Assembly (NCBI RefSeq): GCF_055900595.2
Contig: NZ_CM148325.1
DNA: 64,000 nt
Reading direction: 5' to 3' (one strand)
Part shown: positions 8,623 through 14,184 of the stretch, piece after piece
Numbering within the stretch: the first letter of the stretch is position 1
Layout: each line of letters opens with the position of its first letter
The notes under the pieces: model-generated
The model's input: only the letters and a program-made list of their open reading frames with translations
Database searches by the model: none
Told to the model about the DNA's origin: nothing
Made by a program: the position numbers and the translations under genes

Positions 8623-9330
8623 GTGCACAGAAAACCCCCAGCTAGGCTGGGGGTTCCGGAAAGCTTTCAGCTTTGAGCCAGTTATTAAAACCCCTTTTGA
8701 TTTGTTAAAACACCTTGCGGTCTGGCAACTGCAAGTGTCAAACAAGAAATCAAAAGGGGGTCCCAATGGGGGACGAAAAGAGCTTAGCGCACACCCGCTG
8801 GAACTGTAAATATCACATAGTTTTTGCGCCGAAATACCGAAGACTGGCGTTTTACGGAGAGAAGCGTAGGGCGATAGGCAGTATTTTGAGAAAGCTGTGT
8901 GAGTGGAAAAGCGTACGGATTCTGGAAGCAGAGTGCTGCGCAGATCATATCCATATGCTTGTGGAAATCCCACCCAAAATGAGCGTATCCGGCTTTATGG
9001 GATATCTGAAAGGGAAAAGCAGTCTGATGCTTTACGAGCAGTTTGGGGATTTGAAATTCAAATACAGAAACAGGGAGTTCTGGTGCCGAGGGTACTATGT
9101 CGATACGGTGGGTAAGAACACGGCGAAGATACAGGACTACATAAAGCACCAGCTTGAAGAGGATAAAATGGGGGAGCAGTTATCGATTCCATATCCGGGC
9201 AGCCCGTTTACGGGCCGTAAGTAACGAAGTTGAATGCAAATGTCAGATCGTATGCGCCTGTTAGGGCGCGGCTGGTAACAGAGCCTTACAGGCGCATTTG
9301 AAAAACCTCCGGCTATGCCGGAGGATATTT
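8623..9330 (+). mobile_element. IS200 insertion sequence (IS200/IS605 family); ends approximate
   Basis: Contains a tnpA matching IS200 Y1 transposase; left-end hairpin CCCCCAGC-tagg-CTGGGGG upstream of tnpA; ~0.7 kb, the expected IS200 size. Confidence 0.8.
8766..9224 (+). CDS. tnpA: IS200 transposase TnpA (HUH/Y1)
   Basis: 152 aa MGDEKSLAHTRWNCKYHIVFAPKYRR...HIHMLVEIPPK, the HUH motif and IS200 TnpA signature. Confidence 0.95.
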   Translation: MGDEKSLAHTRWNCKYHIVFAPKYRRLAFYGEKRRAIGSILRKLCEWKSVRILEAECCADHIHMLVEIPPKMSVSGFMGYLKGKSSLMLYEQFGDLKFKYRNREFWCRGYYVDTVGKNTAKIQDYIKHQLEEDKMGEQLSIPYPGSPFTGRK

Positions 9331-9345
9331 ATTTGTGGAGTGGAT

Positions 9346-11751
9346 ATGGCAGCAGTAAAAATCTCAGGTGTGCTGAAAGATGGTGCGGGAAAACCAATAC
9401 AGAACTGCACTATTCAACTGAAGGCAAAGCGTAACAGCACCACGGTACTGGTGAACACGGTGGCTTCTGAAAATCCGGATGAAGCCGGACGTTACAGCAT
9501 GGATGTTGAGTATGGCCAGTACAGCGTCACCCTGCTGGTTGAAGGTTTTCCGCCTTCACATGCCGGGACCATTACCGTCTATGAAGGCTCCAGACCAGGT
9601 ACGCTGAATGATTTTCTCGGTGCCATGACGGAAGATGATGTCATGCCGGAGGCATTGCGTCGTTTTGAGGCAATGGTGGAAGAAGTGGCACGCAACGCCG
9701 AAGCCGCCTCTCAGAGCGCAGCGGCGGCAAAGAAATCCGAAACTGCAGCGGCATCATCAAAGAACGCGGCGAAAACCTCAGAAACGAATGCAGCTAATAG
9801 TGCACAGGCGGCAGCGACCTCAAAGACTGCATCGGCAAACTCCGCGACAGCAGCCAAAAAATCAGAAACCAACGCGAAAAATAGCGAGACAGCCGCAAAG
9901 ACGAGCGAAACCAACGCAAAGTCCAGCCAGACGGCAGCGAAAACCAGCGAAACGAATGCCAAAGCCAGTGAAACTGCGGCAAAAAACAGCCAGGTTGCAG
10001 CAGCCCAAAGCGAGAGCGCGGCAGCCGGTTCTGCGACTTCAGCAGCTGGATCAGCAACTGCTGCGGCTAACAGCCAGAAAGCTGCGAAGACGAGTGAAAC
10101 TAACGCAAAGTCCAGCCAGACGGCAGCGAAGACCAGCGAAACGAATGCCAAAACCAGCGAAACTGCGGCGAAAAACAGTCAGGATGCAGCAGCCCAAAGC
10201 GAGAGTGCTGCAGCTGGTTCTGCAAGCGCGGCGGCTGCTTCTGCCACTGCATCAGCTAACAGTCAAAAAGCAGCAAAAACCAGTGAAACCAACGCAAAGG
10301 CGAGCGAGACTGCGGCGGCGAACTCGGCGCAAGCATCGGCAGCAAGCCAGACAGCAGCTAAAGCAAGTGAAGACGCAGCCAGAGAGTATGCAAGCCAGGC
10401 AGCGGAGCCGTATAAACAAGTTTTGCAGCCGTTGCCCGATGTGTGGATACCGTTTAATGATTCACTGGATATGATTACGGGCTTTTCGCCATCATATAAA
10501 AAAATTGTTATTGGCGACGATGAAATAACAATGCCTGGCGACAAGATTGTAAAGTTTAAACGCGCATCGAAAGCAACTTACATTAATAAATCTGGTGTGC
10601 TGACAGAGGCTGCCATTGACGAGCCACGATTTGAACGTGATGGCCTGCTTATTGAGGGGCAAAGAACTAACCTGCTAATCAATTCAACAAATCCGACTAA
10701 ATGGAACAAGTCGTCAAATATGATCTTAAGTGCATCAGGTGTAGATGATTTCGGATTCCAGTACGCAAAATTTACATTAAAACCAGAAATGGTAGGGCAA
10801 ATTTCAGCGATTAACATAGTAACCGTTTCCGGCAGTAAAGGTTTTGATGTAACAGGCGGAGAAAAGTATGTAACCATATCATGCAGGGTGCAAAGTGGCA
10901 CTCCAAATTTAAGATGCCGATTACGATTTGAAAACTATGATGGTTCTACCTACACATTCTTAGGTGACGCTTACTTAAATACGACAGATTTATCTATTGA
11001 TAAGACGGGTGGTGCCGCTAATCGCATTACTGCAAGGGCTGTTAAAGATGAAGCAAGCAAATGGATCTTTTTTGAGGCGACAATTAAGGCACTTGATACA
11101 GAAAATATGATAGGTGGAATGGTTCAGTATGCCCCGGCAAAAGGAGTGGGCACTGGCGCGGATGATTATATTTATATTGCGACCCCTCAAGTTGAAGGTG
11201 GGGCGTGCGCTTCATCGTTTATTATAACAGGCGCATCCCCTGTAACACGCGCCAGCGATATTGTGACGGTCCCCATTTCTCTAAATTGGTGCAATCCCGC
11301 TATTAGTTCATTAGCAGAAGTTAATACCAATTGGGATGAATCGCCAAACAAAGAAGGTAGCGCACGTATTCTTAATATTTCCACTACGGGAGATACAACT
11401 GAAATTGCAGATGAAAGTTATATGTATTTGGGGTATACATCTTTGGGAGCACGCGCAATCATTACAAATGGTAAAGGCACTAAAATAGAATATAAAAGCG
11501 TTATAGAACGACCAGAGAGAAAAAGCATTATCGGCTTTAGATTCACAGAAAGTCGAGAATTGTGTGTTGTGGTTAACGGTAATATTGGTGCTAAGGTAGT
11601 TTCTCCTTATAAAAAACACAAATATACAGGAGGCTTCATTAATATTGGTGGTCAATCATCATCCGGCAACCGTCACCTATTTGGACACGTTCGAAATCTG
11701 CGTATTTGGCACAAGGCATTGACTGATGCTCAGATGGGGGAGTCAATCTAA
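9346..11751 (+). CDS. stf: side tail fiber protein (lambda Stf-like N-terminus, Ala/Ser/Thr-rich repeat shaft, divergent AT-rich C-terminal domain)
   Basis: N-terminus MAAVKISGVLKDGAGKPIQNCTIQLKA... matches lambda Stf; shaft has repeated KTSETNAK units; C-terminus ends GHVRNLRIWHKALTDAQM, resembling a LamG/concanavalin-like fold. Confidence 0.85.
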   Translation: MAAVKISGVLKDGAGKPIQNCTIQLKAKRNSTTVLVNTVASENPDEAGRYSMDVEYGQYSVTLLVEGFPPSHAGTITVYEGSRPGTLNDFLGAMTEDDVMPEALRRFEAMVEEVARNAEAASQSAAAAKKSETAAASSKNAAKTSETNAANSAQAAATSKTASANSATAAKKSETNAKNSETAAKTSETNAKSSQTAAKTSETNAKASETAAKNSQVAAAQSESAAAGSATSAAGSATAAANSQKAAKTSETNAKSSQTAAKTSETNAKTSETAAKNSQDAAAQSESAAAGSASAAAASATASANSQKAAKTSETNAKASETAAANSAQASAASQTAAKASEDAAREYASQAAEPYKQVLQPLPDVWIPFNDSLDMITGFSPSYKKIVIGDDEITMPGDKIVKFKRASKATYINKSGVLTEAAIDEPRFERDGLLIEGQRTNLLINSTNPTKWNKSSNMILSASGVDDFGFQYAKFTLKPEMVGQISAINIVTVSGSKGFDVTGGEKYVTISCRVQSGTPNLRCRLRFENYDGSTYTFLGDAYLNTTDLSIDKTGGAANRITARAVKDEASKWIFFEATIKALDTENMIGGMVQYAPAKGVGTGADDYIYIATPQVEGGACASSFIITGASPVTRASDIVTVPISLNWCNPAISSLAEVNTNWDESPNKEGSARILNISTTGDTTEIADESYMYLGYTSLGARAIITNGKGTKIEYKSVIERPERKSIIGFRFTESRELCVVVNGNIGAKVVSPYKKHKYTGGFINIGGQSSSGNRHLFGHVRNLRIWHKALTDAQMGESI
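9860..10330 (+). repeat. tandem imperfect coding repeats (~186-bp units) in the tail fiber shaft
   Basis: Protein repeats SQKAAKTSETNAKSSQTAAKTSETNAK(A/T)SETAAKNSQ...AAAQSESAAAGSA occur at least twice, nearly identical. Confidence 0.7.
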
Positions 11752-12032
11752 TGAAAGATTTAACACTCAAATTTGCCGACAGGGCCGACTTTTCGGCTTT
11801 TATGGGAAGTATTGGCTATTATAATGACGAGTCGATGCAGGATGATATTCTGATTGATGTGATAGGTAACGTGTACAAAGAAACCGGAGAGCTGACTGAA
11901 GATGGCGAACCGGTATGTGTTAAGGAAGATGGATATTTTGTAAACGTGCGCATCATTAAGGATACGCAAATATCGTCATTATTCGATGAATACGCGGTTG
12001 CTGTTGAGCATCAACTTCGTGGCTGGATGTGA
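11751..12032 (+). CDS. hypothetical protein (93 aa) immediately downstream of tail fiber; possible fiber assembly/accessory protein
   Basis: ATG overlaps the stf stop (TAATG); acidic 93-aa product; same low-GC block as the fiber C-terminus. Confidence 0.5.
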   Translation: MKDLTLKFADRADFSAFMGSIGYYNDESMQDDILIDVIGNVYKETGELTEDGEPVCVKEDGYFVNVRIIKDTQISSLFDEYAVAVEHQLRGWM

Positions 12033-12041
12033 GGTAGAGAA

Positions 12042-12746
12042 ATGGCTACATCAACAGTAATTCCGGGAGACATCACCACGCTGAAGGGAGATGTTAGTAA
12101 AGCAAAGGAAGATATTTCCTCTATTAACGGAAAAGTATCAACGCTTCAGACTGATATGGCCAGTGCAAAGCAGGATATCAGCACCAGATACACAAAAACT
12201 GAAGTTGATAATAAGCTGAAAAACAAAGTGGAAGTGAACGATCTGGAAAGTGGTCGTTATGGCGGAGATTTTTACCCGCTGACTGGCCGTGAAGCGTTTT
12301 ATTTATGGGGATTGGGCACAACTACAGCGGCGGCAAATCTTTATCTTAATCCTGACCCTGCAATTTCGTCTGTGCTGCGGTCAACATCGTCTATCCGCTA
12401 TAAACATTCAGTAGAGACGATAGATTCAGAGCACGCCGATCTCATTTTCAGGATGCGCCCTGTGTGGTACAGGTCGCAATGCGAAAATGACAGGCGTGAC
12501 TGGGGATTCTATGGATTGATTGCCGAGGAAGTTGGAGAAATTGCCCCTCAGTTTGTTCACTGGCGACCAGCCAACGAAGATGATGCACCGGAAACCATTT
12601 CCAGCAATGGCCTTGTTGCCGAAGGTGTAATGTACGAACGTCTGGTTGTTCCACTGATTCACCATATCCAGAAGCTGACTGAAAGAGTTGATGAACTTGA
12701 GTCAGAATTAAAGTTGTTATCCGTTTCCCGAAGCGATATCGGATAA
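12042..12746 (+). CDS. coiled-coil protein with C-terminal intramolecular-chaperone (peptidase S74-like) domain; tail-fiber-related
   Basis: N-terminal heptad-like coiled coil; C-terminal SSIRYKHSVETID...LIFRMRPVWYR...GFYGLIAEEV resembles the self-cleaving chaperone domain of endosialidase-type fibers. Confidence 0.6.
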   Translation: MATSTVIPGDITTLKGDVSKAKEDISSINGKVSTLQTDMASAKQDISTRYTKTEVDNKLKNKVEVNDLESGRYGGDFYPLTGREAFYLWGLGTTTAAANLYLNPDPAISSVLRSTSSIRYKHSVETIDSEHADLIFRMRPVWYRSQCENDRRDWGFYGLIAEEVGEIAPQFVHWRPANEDDAPETISSNGLVAEGVMYERLVVPLIHHIQKLTERVDELESELKLLSVSRSDIG

Positions 12747-12756
12747 AGGAGGCGTA

Positions 12757-13050
12757 ATGGATATAACACCTTTCCTTCATGCACTTTGTGCTGTGGCTGC
12801 GCAGGTACTGGTTGGTCTTTTTACCGGAAACTGGGCTTACGGGGCGATAGCTGGTTGTACGTTCTTCATTGCGCGTGAACATACCCAGGCAGAATATCGC
12901 TGGATTGAAATGTTCGGGCATGGCAAGCGTATGAATATGCCGTGGTGGGGCGGTTTTGATCCGCGTGCGTGGGATGTGGCAAGCCTGATGGATTTTGCTG
13001 TGCCGGTGGTGGCGTGTCTGCTGGTCTGGCTGTTGGTTAATCGTGGGTGA
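12757..13050 (+). CDS. small membrane protein (97 aa, two predicted TM segments), function unknown
   Basis: Hydrophobic N- and C-terminal segments; RBS AAGGAGG upstream; tightly packed after the preceding ORF. Confidence 0.5.
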   Translation: MDITPFLHALCAVAAQVLVGLFTGNWAYGAIAGCTFFIAREHTQAEYRWIEMFGHGKRMNMPWWGGFDPRAWDVASLMDFAVPVVACLLVWLLVNRG

Positions 13051-13060
13051 AAAAAGGTGA

Positions 13061-13180
13061 GCTGTATATGCAACGGAGGAAGAAACCTCGTTGCGGGAAG
13101 CCTTGAAGAAGTATCGGGTGTTGCTGAACCGTGTTGATACGTCAACTGCACAGGATATTGAATGGCCAGCACTGCCGTAG
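13061..13180 (+). pseudogene. tfa: tail fiber assembly protein (Tfa) 3' remnant
   Basis: Translates to [36 protein letters not shown], the conserved Tfa C-terminus (as in K-12 TfaQ/TfaR), with no upstream coding part. Confidence 0.75.
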
Positions 13181-13277
13181 GGTAAAACATATAAATTCTA
13201 TAATTAGATGTATCTTTCCATTTACGGCAAGGAAGGGGGCTTGGAAGACGTAAGGCATCTCACACCGAGATTATTTT

Positions 13278-13868
13278 TTATATGTCAGGTGTCTGAAGTT
13301 TTGCTTTGGCTCTTAAAATGGTTTGCCGCGAGGTTTTGAATTCCCGGGCAATGGCACTTATACTTACACCTGACTTAATCCGTTCGAATACCACCTGTTT
13401 CTGTTCTTCATTTAACACAGGTGGTCGACCAAAACGTTTCCCTGCGCCCCGGGCTCTTACTATCCCGGAATGAGTGCGTTCAAGTAAAAGGTCTCGTTCA
13501 AATTCAGCGACTGCTGAAATTACTTGCATCATCATTTTTCCTGTTGGACTGGTCAGGTCAATGCCCCCCAATGCTAAGCAATGCACTCTGATACCTGTTT
13601 CGGTCAGTTGTTCCACTGTTTTCCTGATATCCATTGCATTACAACCAAGGCGATCCAGTTTTGTCACAATCAATTGATCACCACATTTCAGGCGAGCAAG
13701 CAACCGGTTAAAACCAGGACGCTCACTGGTTGCTGCTGAGCCGCTAATGTGTTCTTCGATTATTTGCTGAGGTTTGATTTTAAAACCTGCACTTTCGATT
13801 TCCCGGCGTTGATTTTCGGTGGTCTGATCCAGCGTTGATATCCGACAGTAAGCAAAAATTCGAGACAT
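13278..13868 (-). CDS. pin: serine recombinase / DNA invertase (PinQ/PinR-like)
   Basis: 196 aa [29 protein letters not shown]... resolvase/invertase fold with catalytic Ser and C-terminal HTH; position next to tfa and ydfK matches K-12 pinQ. Confidence 0.9.
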
Positions 13869-14184
13869 AGTGAGACTCTATACGAAATTGGTGTTCATAT
13901 CATAATGCATCTCAGAAAATAATTTTGATTATTTTTGTGCATGTTTGTATGTACACGTTCGAAAATAAACGAATGCGTATGCAACCCCGTAATTTTGGTG
14001 AGACCCAAAATCGATTTTGTGAAAAATGGCTTTAACTCGGTTTGTTTTTCGAGTTCCGGGCGGACTCAAGGAAGAAGAATAGTGTTGCGTGTTATTTTAA
14101 CCAGATTTCAAGTTGTTTGGTCGTGGAAAAGTGGAGCAAAATGTTGTTAAAGTGGAAAAATGATAAAAAAGTAAGTTTATTATA

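What the first reader, a model, noticed from the sequence alone, without database searches (positions are those of the whole stretch)
11751..13060. Three-gene accessory cassette wedged between the tail fiber and a tfa remnant
Three co-oriented, tightly packed ORFs (93 aa overlapping the stf stop; 234 aa with a coiled coil plus an S74-type intramolecular chaperone-like C-terminus; 97-aa two-TM membrane protein) occupy the place where a canonical tfa gene should be. They share the fiber C-terminus' low GC and end exactly where the tfa 3' remnant begins. This could be a non-canonical fiber maturation set, a second short fiber, or a moron cargo such as superinfection exclusion or defence; the membrane protein in particular has no obvious tail function.
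Basis: partly seen in the sequence, partly recalled or inferred. Interest (0 to 1): 0.65.

Follow-up and report, generated by a model that had tools for sequence, protein, structure and literature searches.

The report
Two-part side tail fibre module
The three small genes after the prophage tail-fibre gene are a common, conserved fibre module found in many E. coli prophages and free-living phages: a small partner protein, a short second fibre with a self-cleaving folding domain, and a membrane protein of unknown role.

Summary
Three tightly packed, co-oriented ORFs (93, 234 and 97 aa) follow stf in a lambdoid prophage at the E. coli Qin site, and they end 20 bp before a tfa 3' remnant. The cassette is not unusual. 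The 234-aa gene is in 739 of 5426 complete E. coli genomes and the 97-aa gene in 1870. The same gene order occurs in plaque-forming lambdoid phages.

- **ORF93** belongs to a family that always directly follows a fibre gene ending in a LamG-like lectin domain. This holds in lambdoid, T1-like, 9g-like, T5-like and P1-like phages. Its fold has no solved relative. It is most likely that domain's chaperone or cap.
- **ORF234** is a minimal member of the distal-fibre family that includes IrisVonRoten Gp24. It has an invariant N-terminal motif, a coiled coil, and an S74 intramolecular chaperone with a Ser116/Lys121 dyad.
- **ORF97** (named Ybl63 in UniProt) is a three-helix membrane protein. It closes receptor-binding gene modules in very different phages. 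Its function is unknown and it matches no defence model.

The idea of an unusual wedged cassette is not. Interest is modest. The open questions are what ORF93 and ORF97 do.

The parts
8626..9327 (+). IS200/IS605-family insertion (tnpA ORF 8715-9224) between lom and stf. It is not part of the module but lies 18 nt upstream of the stf ATG.
   Evidence: NCBIfam transpos_IS200 E 2.8e-42. It is absent from the otherwise 99.7% identical locus of strain THO-008.
9346..11751 (+). stf, the proximal side tail fibre (801 aa from the ATG at 9346; the mechanical ORF starts at TTG 9298). It has an N-terminal anchor, an Ala-rich shaft, a conserved joint (10424-10722), a beta-sandwich receptor-binding domain (about 10816-11316) and a C-terminal LamG-like lectin domain (about 11557-11733).
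   Evidence: Pfam phage_tail_N, residues 19-148, E 5.7e-67. A solved tail-fibre N-terminal fragment, 9e7m, matches at E 8.8e-49. The C-terminal profile matches the RcGTA head-spike fibre 6tb9 at E 3.5e-10 and T7 gp17 at 0.0027. Laminin_G_3 is matched by 9 of 9 aligned homologues at E<=0.1, and by the window protein at 0.0016. The end motif RHLFGHxRNxRIWHKxLTDxQ is conserved in the eight fibres of lambdoid, T1-like, 9g-like and T5-like phages whose C-termini were read; the two P1-like fibres end in a related variant, NGH[LI]RN[LI]RIWH[KR]xL.
11751..12032 (+). ORF93 (phrog_1361), the small partner protein of LamG-ended fibre modules. It is probably a chaperone or cap.
12042..12386 (+). ORF234 residues 1-115, the predicted mature short distal fibre. 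It comprises the invariant N-terminal motif MATSTVIPxDIxxLK (12042-12086), a coiled-coil-like segment (to about residue 70) and a short tip of about 45 residues.
   Evidence: Alignment A1 includes IrisVonRoten Gp24, KarlJaspers, VogelGryff, ESCO3, HannyBb and PhiR49_1; residues M1, T3, T5, I7, P8, D10, I11, L14 and K15 are invariant. PHROG profiles 4563 and 19752 share residues 1-32 as their own N-termini. There is a P22 gp26 coiled-coil match.
12387..12746 (+). ORF234 residues 116-234, the S74-type intramolecular chaperone domain. Ser116 is encoded at 12387-12389 and Lys121 at 12402-12404.
   Evidence: Pfam Peptidase_S74, residues 116-172, E 2.2e-5. S116 and K121 are invariant in A1. The domain aligns to the C-terminal end of a solved L-shaped tail fibre, 8hqz_d, E 1.2e-7. 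phrog_3299 matches at its C-terminal end, E 2.3e-140.
12757..13050 (+). ORF97 (phrog_1443; 'Ybl63' in UniProt), a three-helix membrane protein with a very conserved loop, AREHTQAEYRWI...MPWWGGFD. Its function is unknown.
   Evidence: The AF2 model has pLDDT 91.5. Foldseek finds only its own family. It matches no Pfam, NCBIfam or PADLOC model. 29 columns are invariant across 21 sequences. It is in 1870 of 5426 E. coli genomes. It sits at the end of receptor-binding gene modules in lambdoid, P1-like, P2-like, P22-like and other phages.
13070..13180 (+). tfa 3' remnant, the last ~36 codons of a lambda-type tail fibre assembly gene.
   Evidence: It is a RefSeq pseudogene, 'tail fiber assembly protein, missing N-terminus'. 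The sequence was read. The remnant travels with ORF97 in phage 21, Lambda_4C10, 2G7b and PhiR49_1.
13278..13868 (-). pinQ, a serine DNA invertase. It is a neighbour and not part of the module.
   Evidence: RefSeq annotates it as pinQ. It matches NCBIfam serine recombinase models. No paired inverted crossover sites were found nearby.

Best explanation
The region is the distal end of a modular, two-part side tail fibre locus plus one attached membrane-protein gene. Stf is the proximal fibre. Its C-terminus carries a beta-sandwich receptor-binding domain followed by a LamG-like lectin domain, instead of the lambda-type tip that needs Tfa. ORF93 is translationally coupled to stf and is the dedicated partner of that LamG-ended module. 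Most likely it is a folding chaperone or tip cap that plays the role Tfa plays for lambda-type fibres (inferred). ORF234 is a minimal distal fibre. Its invariant N-terminal motif docks it on the Stf/ORF93 end (inferred from conservation and from the published IrisVonRoten model). Its coiled coil trimerises. Its C-terminal S74 domain folds the trimer and then cuts itself off at Ser116 using Lys121, which would leave a ~115-residue tip (inferred by homology). Longer alleles of the same gene (about 345-574 aa) carry real receptor-binding domains in the middle, so this gene slot is a host-range cassette. ORF97 is a separate unit. It is a three-helix inner-membrane protein of the Ybl63 family, read from the same late transcript, that terminates receptor-binding gene modules in many unrelated phages. 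Its most likely role is an envelope-directed accessory function such as superinfection exclusion or interference with surface-glycan receptors. This last point is a guess with low support. The whole block replaced a lambda-type stf tip plus tfa by an old recombination inside tfa.
For: - **Gene reality and abundance:**
- **Same order in phages:** PhiR49_1, HannyBb and 2G7b have stf-93-fibre2-97. Phage 21 and Lambda_4C10 have 93-97 without fibre 2. ESCO3, KarlJaspers, VogelGryff and IrisVonRoten have stf-93-fibre2. Of 80 IMG/VR loci, 68 have 93-F2-97 and 10 have 93-97. Fibre-2 lengths cluster at 227-234 aa (41 loci) and 345-346 aa (25 loci).
- **ORF93 pairs with LamG ends:** a conserved end motif, Laminin_G_3 in 9 of 9 homologues, and two LamG fibres each with its own ORF93 homologue in a P1-like element.
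- **Fibre 2 family:** an invariant N-terminal motif and an S116/K121 dyad, Pfam S74, and a solved relative in 8hqz. In all 11 phages that appear in both lists, fibre 2 starts just after the ORF93 homologue.
- **Literature:** lateral fibres can be made of two or more proteins (bioRxiv 10.1101/2021.03.08.434280). IrisVonRoten Gp24 is modelled as a distal fibre with an intramolecular chaperone, attached to proximal fibre Gp22, whose galectin-like domain protrudes at the C-terminus (bioRxiv 10.1101/2024.09.12.612763).
- **Mosaic joints:** 10424-10722, 11643-12101 and 12745-13167 are the conserved recombination junctions.
- **ORF97 context:**
Against: - No experiment or multimer model here shows that ORF93 binds Stf or that ORF234 attaches to it.
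- The mature part of ORF234 is very short and has no recognisable receptor-binding domain, so it may add little specificity.
- ORF93 has no similarity to any known fibre chaperone.
- ORF97 has no defence or exclusion homology and no promoter or terminator of its own.
- Some ORF97 homologues are not next to fibre genes: an Aeromonas chromosome and Aeromonas jumbo phage PS1.
- In this particular prophage an IS200 copy sits 18 nt upstream of stf and may reduce expression of the whole block.
Confidence: 0.7

Rival explanations
1. ORF234 is not a fibre. It is a trans-acting chaperone or transient cap for Stf: its S74-like domain would help trimerise or protect the Stf end and would not contribute a receptor-binding tip.
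For: Several phage records annotate the homologue as 'putative lateral tail fiber chaperone' or 'chaperone of endosialidase'. The mature part is only ~115 residues with no recognisable binding domain. Stand-alone chaperones that resemble intramolecular chaperone domains and act as transient caps have been described for Alteromonas phages (PMC10579305).
Against: The annotations follow the Pfam family name, not experiments. The protein has the full cis architecture: N-terminal attachment motif, coiled coil, tip, then S116/K121 at the junction. Longer alleles with the same ends carry large middle domains, and IrisVonRoten Gp24 is modelled as a T-shaped fibre with two binding domains. Phage 21 and 10 of 80 loci lack the gene but keep Stf and ORF93, so Stf does not need it.
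Confidence: 0.15
2. ORF234 is a decaying fragment, the left-over 3' end of a longer fibre gene, and the cassette in this prophage is non-functional debris.
For: ORF234 matches only the last ~240 positions of the 1385-position phrog_3299. The locus is mosaic and holds a tfa remnant. An IS200 copy lies just upstream of stf.
Against: The N-terminus is the genuine, invariant start of the family. dN/dS is 0.16. The same 234-aa form is in cultured phages PhiR49_1 and IdasGreatGrand. A 225-aa form is in the virulent T1-like phage KarlJaspers. The 227-234 aa class is the commonest in 80 loci. The gene is in 739 E. coli genomes at 90-100% identity.
Confidence: 0.05
3. ORF97 is a lysis-related membrane protein (holin, antiholin or lysis regulator) rather than an envelope or exclusion factor.
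For: It is small and has three hydrophobic helices. It is read with late genes. It lies directly upstream of holin-like or LydB genes in a Comamonas prophage and in a P1-like element.
Against: It matches no holin family. It lacks the charged C-terminal tail typical of holins (the comparison rests on general knowledge of holins). In most other phage types it is far from the lysis genes and next to fibre or tailspike genes. Its extreme loop conservation across hosts is unlike holins. The adjacency in P1-like elements may simply reflect where the P1-type lysis genes lie; this was not checked against a P1 genome here.
Confidence: 0.1
4. The three genes together form an anti-phage defence or superinfection-exclusion cassette carried as prophage cargo.
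For: The block sits at the end of the late operon near the prophage boundary, a usual place for cargo. One member is a membrane protein.
Against: No protein matches PADLOC. ORF93 and ORF234 occur in strictly virulent phages inside the fibre locus. ORF234 is a fibre protein by sequence. ORF93 is translationally coupled to stf.
Confidence: 0.03

Closest known systems
Lateral tail fibre locus of T5-like phage IrisVonRoten (Bas32): Gp22 proximal fibre, Gp23 (92 aa), Gp24 T-shaped distal fibre with an intramolecular chaperone
   Same: Gene order and spacing are the same. The proximal fibre ends in the same LamG/galectin-like motif. The small protein is an ORF93 homologue at 37-38% identity. The distal protein shares the invariant N-terminal motif and the S74 domain.
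   Different: Gp24 is 574 aa with two large receptor-binding domains, whereas ORF234 has almost no middle part. IrisVonRoten is a virulent 112-kb phage with no ORF97 gene. The small protein's role is not described in the passages of the papers retrieved by keyword search.
Short distal fibre of T1-like phages (for example KarlJaspers bas06_0035, 225 aa, annotated 'putative lateral tail fiber chaperone')
   Same: This is the closest protein to ORF234 outside lambdoid phages at 62% identity. It has the same minimal architecture and the same position after an ORF93 homologue.
   Different: The host phage is virulent. No ORF97 follows. The start overlaps the ORF93 homologue.
S74 intramolecular chaperone domains of the K1F endosialidase and the T5 L-shaped tail fibre pb1
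   Same: There is a Pfam PF13884 match, a Ser-x4-Lys dyad, a C-terminal position and a terminal helix.
   Different: In those proteins the domain follows a large fibre or enzyme. Here it makes up half of a 234-aa protein. Cleavage has not been shown.
Lambda Stf-Tfa (and Mu S-U, P2 H-G) fibre-chaperone pairs
   Same: A small gene immediately follows the fibre gene and is translationally coupled to it. ORF93 occupies the place of tfa, and a tfa remnant lies downstream.
   Different: ORF93 has no sequence or fold similarity to Tfa-type proteins. The fibre tip it accompanies is a LamG-like lectin domain, not the lambda-type tip.
Branched or multi-protein lateral fibres of T5-like phages (DT57C LtfA/LtfB; recalled from memory, and cited in the BASEL paper as 'two or more separate proteins')
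   Same: A second receptor-binding protein is attached to a first fibre.
   Different: As recalled from memory, DT57C LtfA carries its own intramolecular chaperone and LtfB attaches along it; this was not checked here (the solved fibre 8hqz_d, matched, may be LtfA, but the record does not name the phage). Here the proximal fibre ends in a lectin domain and only the distal protein has the chaperone domain.
Small inner-membrane cargo genes next to receptor-binding genes (P2 Z/fun, HK97 gp15, Pseudomonas D3 Iap; recalled from memory)
   Same: ORF97 occupies the same kinds of genome positions: after the fibre genes in P2-like phages, between tailspike and integrase in a P22-like phage, and at the end of the lambdoid late operon.
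   Different: There is no sequence similarity to any of them. No promoter or terminator of its own was found. It also occurs inside the tailspike cluster of a 154-kb Cobetia phage.

Membership tests
Peptidase S74 / intramolecular chaperone of fibres and endosialidases (ORF234) | Match to Pfam PF13884 | tested here: met
   Residues 116-172, model positions 1-57 of 58, E 2.2e-5.
Peptidase S74 / intramolecular chaperone of fibres and endosialidases (ORF234) | Catalytic Ser with Lys five residues downstream, at the start of the domain | tested here: met
   S116 and K121 are invariant in 7 homologues and align with the S...K of the solved fibre 8hqz_d.
Peptidase S74 / intramolecular chaperone of fibres and endosialidases (ORF234) | Autoproteolytic release of the domain after trimer folding | not testable with these tools
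   This needs protein expression with S116A and K121A mutants.
Two-part lateral/side tail fibre of the IrisVonRoten Gp22-Gp24 type | Proximal fibre with a prophage tail fibre N-terminal anchor and a LamG/galectin-like C-terminal domain | tested here: met
   phage_tail_N E 5.7e-67. Laminin_G_3 in 9 of 9 homologues, window protein E 0.0016. Shared end motif.
Two-part lateral/side tail fibre of the IrisVonRoten Gp22-Gp24 type | Distal protein with the conserved N-terminal motif and a C-terminal intramolecular chaperone, encoded after a 92-93 aa gene | tested here: met
   Alignments A1 and A2. Synteny.
Two-part lateral/side tail fibre of the IrisVonRoten Gp22-Gp24 type | Physical attachment of the distal protein to the proximal fibre in the virion | not testable with these tools
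   Only monomer structure prediction was available. It needs multimer modelling, cryo-EM or virion mass spectrometry.
Tfa-type tail fibre assembly chaperones (ORF93) | Sequence or fold similarity to Tfa / Caudo_TAP or other known fibre chaperones | tested here: not met
   No Pfam match even at E<=10. PHROG family of unknown function. No NCBIfam match. No fold or profile relative in the PDB. ORF93 may work like a Tfa but is not a member.
Tfa-type tail fibre assembly chaperones (ORF93) | Gene immediately downstream of, and coupled to, the fibre gene it serves | tested here: met
   TAATG overlap. One-to-one pairing with LamG-ended fibres.
Known anti-phage defence / exclusion proteins (all three ORFs) | Match to a PADLOC model | tested here: not met
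   No families at E<=0.1.
Moron (autonomous cargo unit) for ORF97 | Own promoter and terminator flanking the gene | tested here: not met
   There is no promoter-like site on the + strand upstream and no terminator-like site downstream. The gap to ORF234 is 10 nt. The consensus scans are crude, so this is weak negative evidence.
Moron (autonomous cargo unit) for ORF97 | Presence or absence independent of neighbouring structural genes, at known cargo hot spots | tested here: met
   The same gene (80-97% identity) follows different upstream genes in lambdoid and P22-like phages. More distant homologues occupy comparable positions in P2-like and P1-like elements. It is absent from virulent phages that carry the same fibre module.
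Holins (ORF97) | Match to a holin family and a charged C-terminal tail | tested here: not met
   No Pfam or PHROG holin match. The C-terminus is ...LLVNRG.

The most novel reading that the evidence does not exclude
ORF97 (Ybl63 family) is a new kind of phage factor linked to receptor-binding proteins. It would be a three-helix inner-membrane protein, with a conserved loop probably facing the cytoplasm, that acts on a conserved envelope pathway. It might, for example, block synthesis or export of the surface glycans that lectin-type fibres and tailspikes bind, or block DNA entry. The effect would be to prevent superinfection or the trapping of progeny. That would explain why it rides at the end of receptor-binding gene modules in sipho-, myo- and podoviruses of several proteobacterial genera, and why it is in about a third of E. 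coli genomes. Separately, ORF93 would define a new family of chaperones or caps for LamG-ended fibre modules.
Probability: 0.3. Interest if true: 0.6.

Novelty: new member of a known kind. Interest (0 to 1): 0.3.

Why it matters
The locus shows how lambdoid prophages build side tail fibres from swappable parts. The parts are a proximal fibre with a lectin end plus its small partner, an optional distal fibre with a self-cleaving folding domain, and a terminal membrane-protein gene. The conserved joints (10424-10722, 11643-12101, 12745-13167) are the natural cut points for engineering fibre chimeras for phage-based delivery or therapy. Such designs probably need ORF93 to be co-expressed. Two very common protein families have no tested function: ORF93, in at least 181 phage records, and ORF97, in 1870 of 5426 E. 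coli genomes. Both are cheap to test in phages that are already cultured.

Tried and rejected
1. **PKD-repeat hits to ORF93.** The representative-library search with the ORF93 profile returned large proteins with 5-9 matched stretches. On reading them they are PKD-type repeat proteins (VEIDWGDGS...HQYLDDNPSGT) and the match is a pattern or composition artefact. I dropped the idea that ORF93 is a repeated structural domain.
2. **Fold searches.**
   - ORF97: Foldseek against AFDB50 found only its own uncharacterised family.
3. **Family and literature searches.** PADLOC, NCBIfam and Pfam gave nothing for ORF93 or ORF97. Literature searches for 'Ybl63' and 'lateral tail fiber chaperone' found no papers.
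4. **Promoter and terminator scan of 11000-14000.** Nothing suggests separate expression of ORF97. The counts are at shuffle level.
5. **Inverted repeats that could be Pin crossover sites.** Only short, imperfect, chance-level pairs were found. There is no evidence of an invertible segment here.
6. **Bacillus phage hits to the ORF234 N-terminus.** They cover only residues 10-53, the coiled-coil part, in 'minor head protein' genes. I treated them as coiled-coil similarity, not homology of the attachment motif.
7. **The Eligo lambda-Stf engineering preprint.** It says nothing about accessory proteins of this type.

Full report
**Where we are.** The window carries a lambdoid prophage at the E. 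coli Qin site. The same 2-kb stretch is 100% identical in many E. coli chromosomes. There it is flanked by gpJ, lom and stf on one side and by pinQ, ydfK, ynfT and the interrupted ydfJ on the other.

The ORF list confirms four co-oriented genes:
- stf: the mechanical ORF is 9298-11751, and the real ATG is at 9346
- ORF93: 11751-12032
- ORF234: 12042-12746
- ORF97: 12757-13050

A tfa 3' remnant follows at 13070-13180, and pinQ lies on the other strand at 13278-13868.

**The observation.** It is correct in nearly every detail.
- The ORF93 ATG shares one base with the stf stop (TAATG).
- The next two genes follow after 9 and 10 nt, with GAGG and AGGAGG ribosome-binding sites.
- ORF234 has an N-terminal coiled-coil-like segment and a Peptidase_S74 domain at residues 116-172, E 2.2e-5.
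- ORF97 is a membrane protein. The high-confidence model (pLDDT 91.5) has three helices rather than two.

The low-GC claim holds for ORF93 (0.418) against the stf C-terminal half (0.412). It is weaker for ORF234 (0.455) and wrong for ORF97 (0.531).

The genes are under purifying selection. dN/dS is 0.09-0.48 against homologues in cultured phages.

**How common it is.**
- The 2-kb block is at least 80% covered in 293 complete E. coli genomes.
- ORF234 is in 739 of 5426 genomes. These include the B strain BLR(DE3).
- ORF97 is in 1870 of 5426 genomes, with up to 7 copies per genome.
- Cultured lambdoid phages have the same order. PhiR49_1 and IdasGreatGrand carry the 234-aa allele. HannyBb, Tritos and 2G7b carry a 343-345 aa allele.
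- Phage 21 and several lambda-like phages have stf, then an ORF93 homologue, then ORF97, with no second fibre.
- Among the 80 IMG/VR loci closest to ORF97, 68 read 93-fibre2-97 and 10 read 93-97.
- Fibre-2 lengths in those loci fall into two main classes: 227-234 aa (41 loci) and 345-346 aa (25 loci).

So this is a standard module and not a one-off insertion.

**The proximal fibre.** Stf has these parts:
- the lambda-type N-terminal anchor (Pfam phage_tail_N, E 5.7e-67; a solved N-terminal fragment matches at E 8.8e-49)
- an Ala-rich shaft
- a C-terminal module with two sub-domains

A profile of the C-terminal module from nine phages matches the distal domain of the RcGTA head-spike fibre (6tb9, E 3.5e-10). 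It matches T7 gp17 more weakly. The last ~60 residues match Laminin_G_3 in 9 of 9 members at E<=0.1.

The end motif RHLFGHxRNxRIWHKxLTDxQ is conserved in lambdoid, T1-like, 9g-like and T5-like fibres. The two P1-like fibres carry a related variant. The BASEL authors describe the homologous end of IrisVonRoten Gp22 as a galectin-like domain protruding from the fibre end.

**ORF93.** This family (phrog_1361) is found in 181 phage records. The groups represented are lambdoid, Drexlerviridae, Dhillonvirus, Queuovirinae, T5-like and rV5-like. In every locus I opened, it directly follows a fibre gene, with overlapping stop and start. In each of those loci where the fibre's C-terminus could be read (all but nimi, whose fibre gene runs off the locus), that fibre carries the LamG end.

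The clearest case is a Leclercia P1-like element. There, two successive LamG-ended fibre proteins are each followed by their own ORF93 homologue (E 1e-34).

ORF93 is kept where no second fibre exists, as in phage 21. Its partner is therefore the LamG-ended module, not fibre 2.

The predicted fold is a small alpha/beta sandwich (pLDDT 92.3) with no solved relative. It has no similarity to Tfa-type chaperones.

I therefore read it as working like a fibre chaperone or tip cap without belonging to any known chaperone family. A structural adaptor role is the main alternative. It is not excluded, because fibre 2 is only ever seen after ORF93.

**ORF234.** Seven homologues were aligned: PhiR49_1, HannyBb, the Nonagvirus ESCO3, the T1-like KarlJaspers, the Seuratvirus VogelGryff, the T5-like IrisVonRoten Gp24 and the window protein. 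The alignment shows three things:
- an invariant N-terminal motif, MATSTVIPxDIxxLK
- a variable middle
- a conserved S74 domain with invariant Ser116 and Lys121

The same Ser and Lys align with a solved L-shaped tail fibre, 8hqz_d. PHROG profiles of other fibre proteins share residues 1-32 as their own N-termini. So this is a true start and not a truncation.

IrisVonRoten Gp24 has been modelled as a distal T-shaped fibre, with its intramolecular chaperone, attached to the proximal fibre.

ORF234 and the 225-aa KarlJaspers protein (62% identity) are the minimal form. They consist of a coiled coil plus a ~45-residue tip ahead of the cleavage site. By homology, the domain folds the trimer and then removes itself, leaving about 115 residues. 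This step is inferred and not shown.

**ORF97.** The family (phrog_1443; 'Ybl63' in UniProt) has 29 invariant positions in 21 sequences down to 56% identity. They are concentrated in a loop, AREHTQAEYRWI...MPWWGGFD, that carries all five Lys/Arg residues lying between the hydrophobic helices. This suggests the loop is cytoplasmic. It has no Pfam, NCBIfam or PADLOC match. Its fold relatives all belong to its own family, which spans gamma-, beta- and alpha-proteobacteria.

Its position is consistent across different phages:
- the end of the lambdoid fibre module
- after the second ORF93 homologue in the P1-like element
- overlapping the fibre gene in an Aeromonas P2-like prophage
- overlapping the tail fibre assembly gene in Halomonas phage phiHAP-1
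- between the tailspike and integrase genes in the P22-like phage Gally
- after the J-like gene in a Comamonas prophage
- inside the tailspike cluster of the 154-kb Cobetia phage Carin-5
- as an unannotated remnant after a large gene at the end of its co-oriented gene block in phage HC6

There are exceptions: a lone chromosomal copy in Aeromonas and a copy in an Aeromonas jumbo phage.

It is 80-97% identical after quite different upstream genes in lambdoid and P22-like phages. Whatever it does is therefore not specific to one receptor. No promoter or terminator of its own was found. In this prophage it is most simply read from the late transcript.

I commit, at low confidence, to an envelope-directed accessory role: exclusion, or interference with surface-glycan receptors. 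A lysis-related role is the main rival.

**History of the locus.** Pairwise comparisons show conserved joints at 10424-10722 (start of the C-terminal Stf module), 11643-12101 (Stf end, ORF93 and the fibre-2 N-terminus) and 12745-13167 (ORF97 plus the tfa remnant). The segments between them are variable.

The ORF97/tfa-remnant junction is the same in phage 21, Lambda_4C10, 2G7b and PhiR49_1. The replacement of a lambda-type tip and tfa therefore happened once, long ago. Gally even carries about 94 nt of the S74 gene's 3' end upstream of its ORF97 copy. This shows the direction of one transfer.

**Verdict.** The cassette is a new member of a known kind, a multi-protein lateral/side tail fibre locus. 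The cargo reading remains plausible for the third. Interest is modest overall. The useful leads are the untested functions of ORF93 and ORF97.

Noticed in passing
window 8626-9327: An IS200/IS605-family element (tnpA 8715-9224; NCBIfam transpos_IS200 E 2.8e-42) is inserted between lom and stf, 18 nt upstream of the stf ATG. It is absent from the otherwise 99.7% identical locus of strain THO-008. It could block late transcription into stf and the cassette in this strain.
   Followed up: partly
L001 3947-6352 (NZ_AP022536.1), equivalent to window 9346-11751: RefSeq annotates stf in strain THO-008 as a pseudogene 'missing C-terminus' and leaves about 400 nt unannotated. The reading frame is nevertheless intact (801 codons, one terminal stop). 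This looks like an annotation artefact caused by the non-lambda C-terminal module.
   Followed up: yes
L018 892-5288 (Leclercia P1-like element): Two successive LamG-ended fibre genes (700 and 437 aa) are each followed by an ORF93 homologue, then by an ORF97 homologue, then by LydA/LydB-like genes. The second fibre begins at the sequence that forms the internal 'joint' of the window's Stf (PDVWxPxxDSL).
   Followed up: partly
L012 3907-4000 (phage Gally, P22-like): About 94 nt homologous to the 3' end of the S74 fibre gene (window 12663-12756) lie upstream of Gally's ORF97 homologue, downstream of an unrelated tailspike gene. This is a footprint of transfer from a lambdoid-type module.
   Followed up: partly
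L016 6001-6309 (Aeromonas rivipollensis chromosome): An ORF97-family gene stands alone in a non-phage context, between a pirin gene and a RIO1 kinase gene, with two lipid A acyltransferase genes nearby. It may hint at a cellular role for the family.
   Followed up: no
window 13278-13868 and surroundings: The pinQ invertase gene is intact, but no paired inverted crossover sites or alternative fibre segments were found nearby. The invertase appears to have no invertible segment in this locus.
   Followed up: partly
window 9650-10400: The Stf shaft is built of long Ala/Ser/Thr/Lys-rich near-repeats (SETNAKxSxTAAK...). They give internal 249-nt self-matches at about 83% identity and strong AT skew. 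They are a likely site of length variation by slippage or recombination.
   Followed up: no
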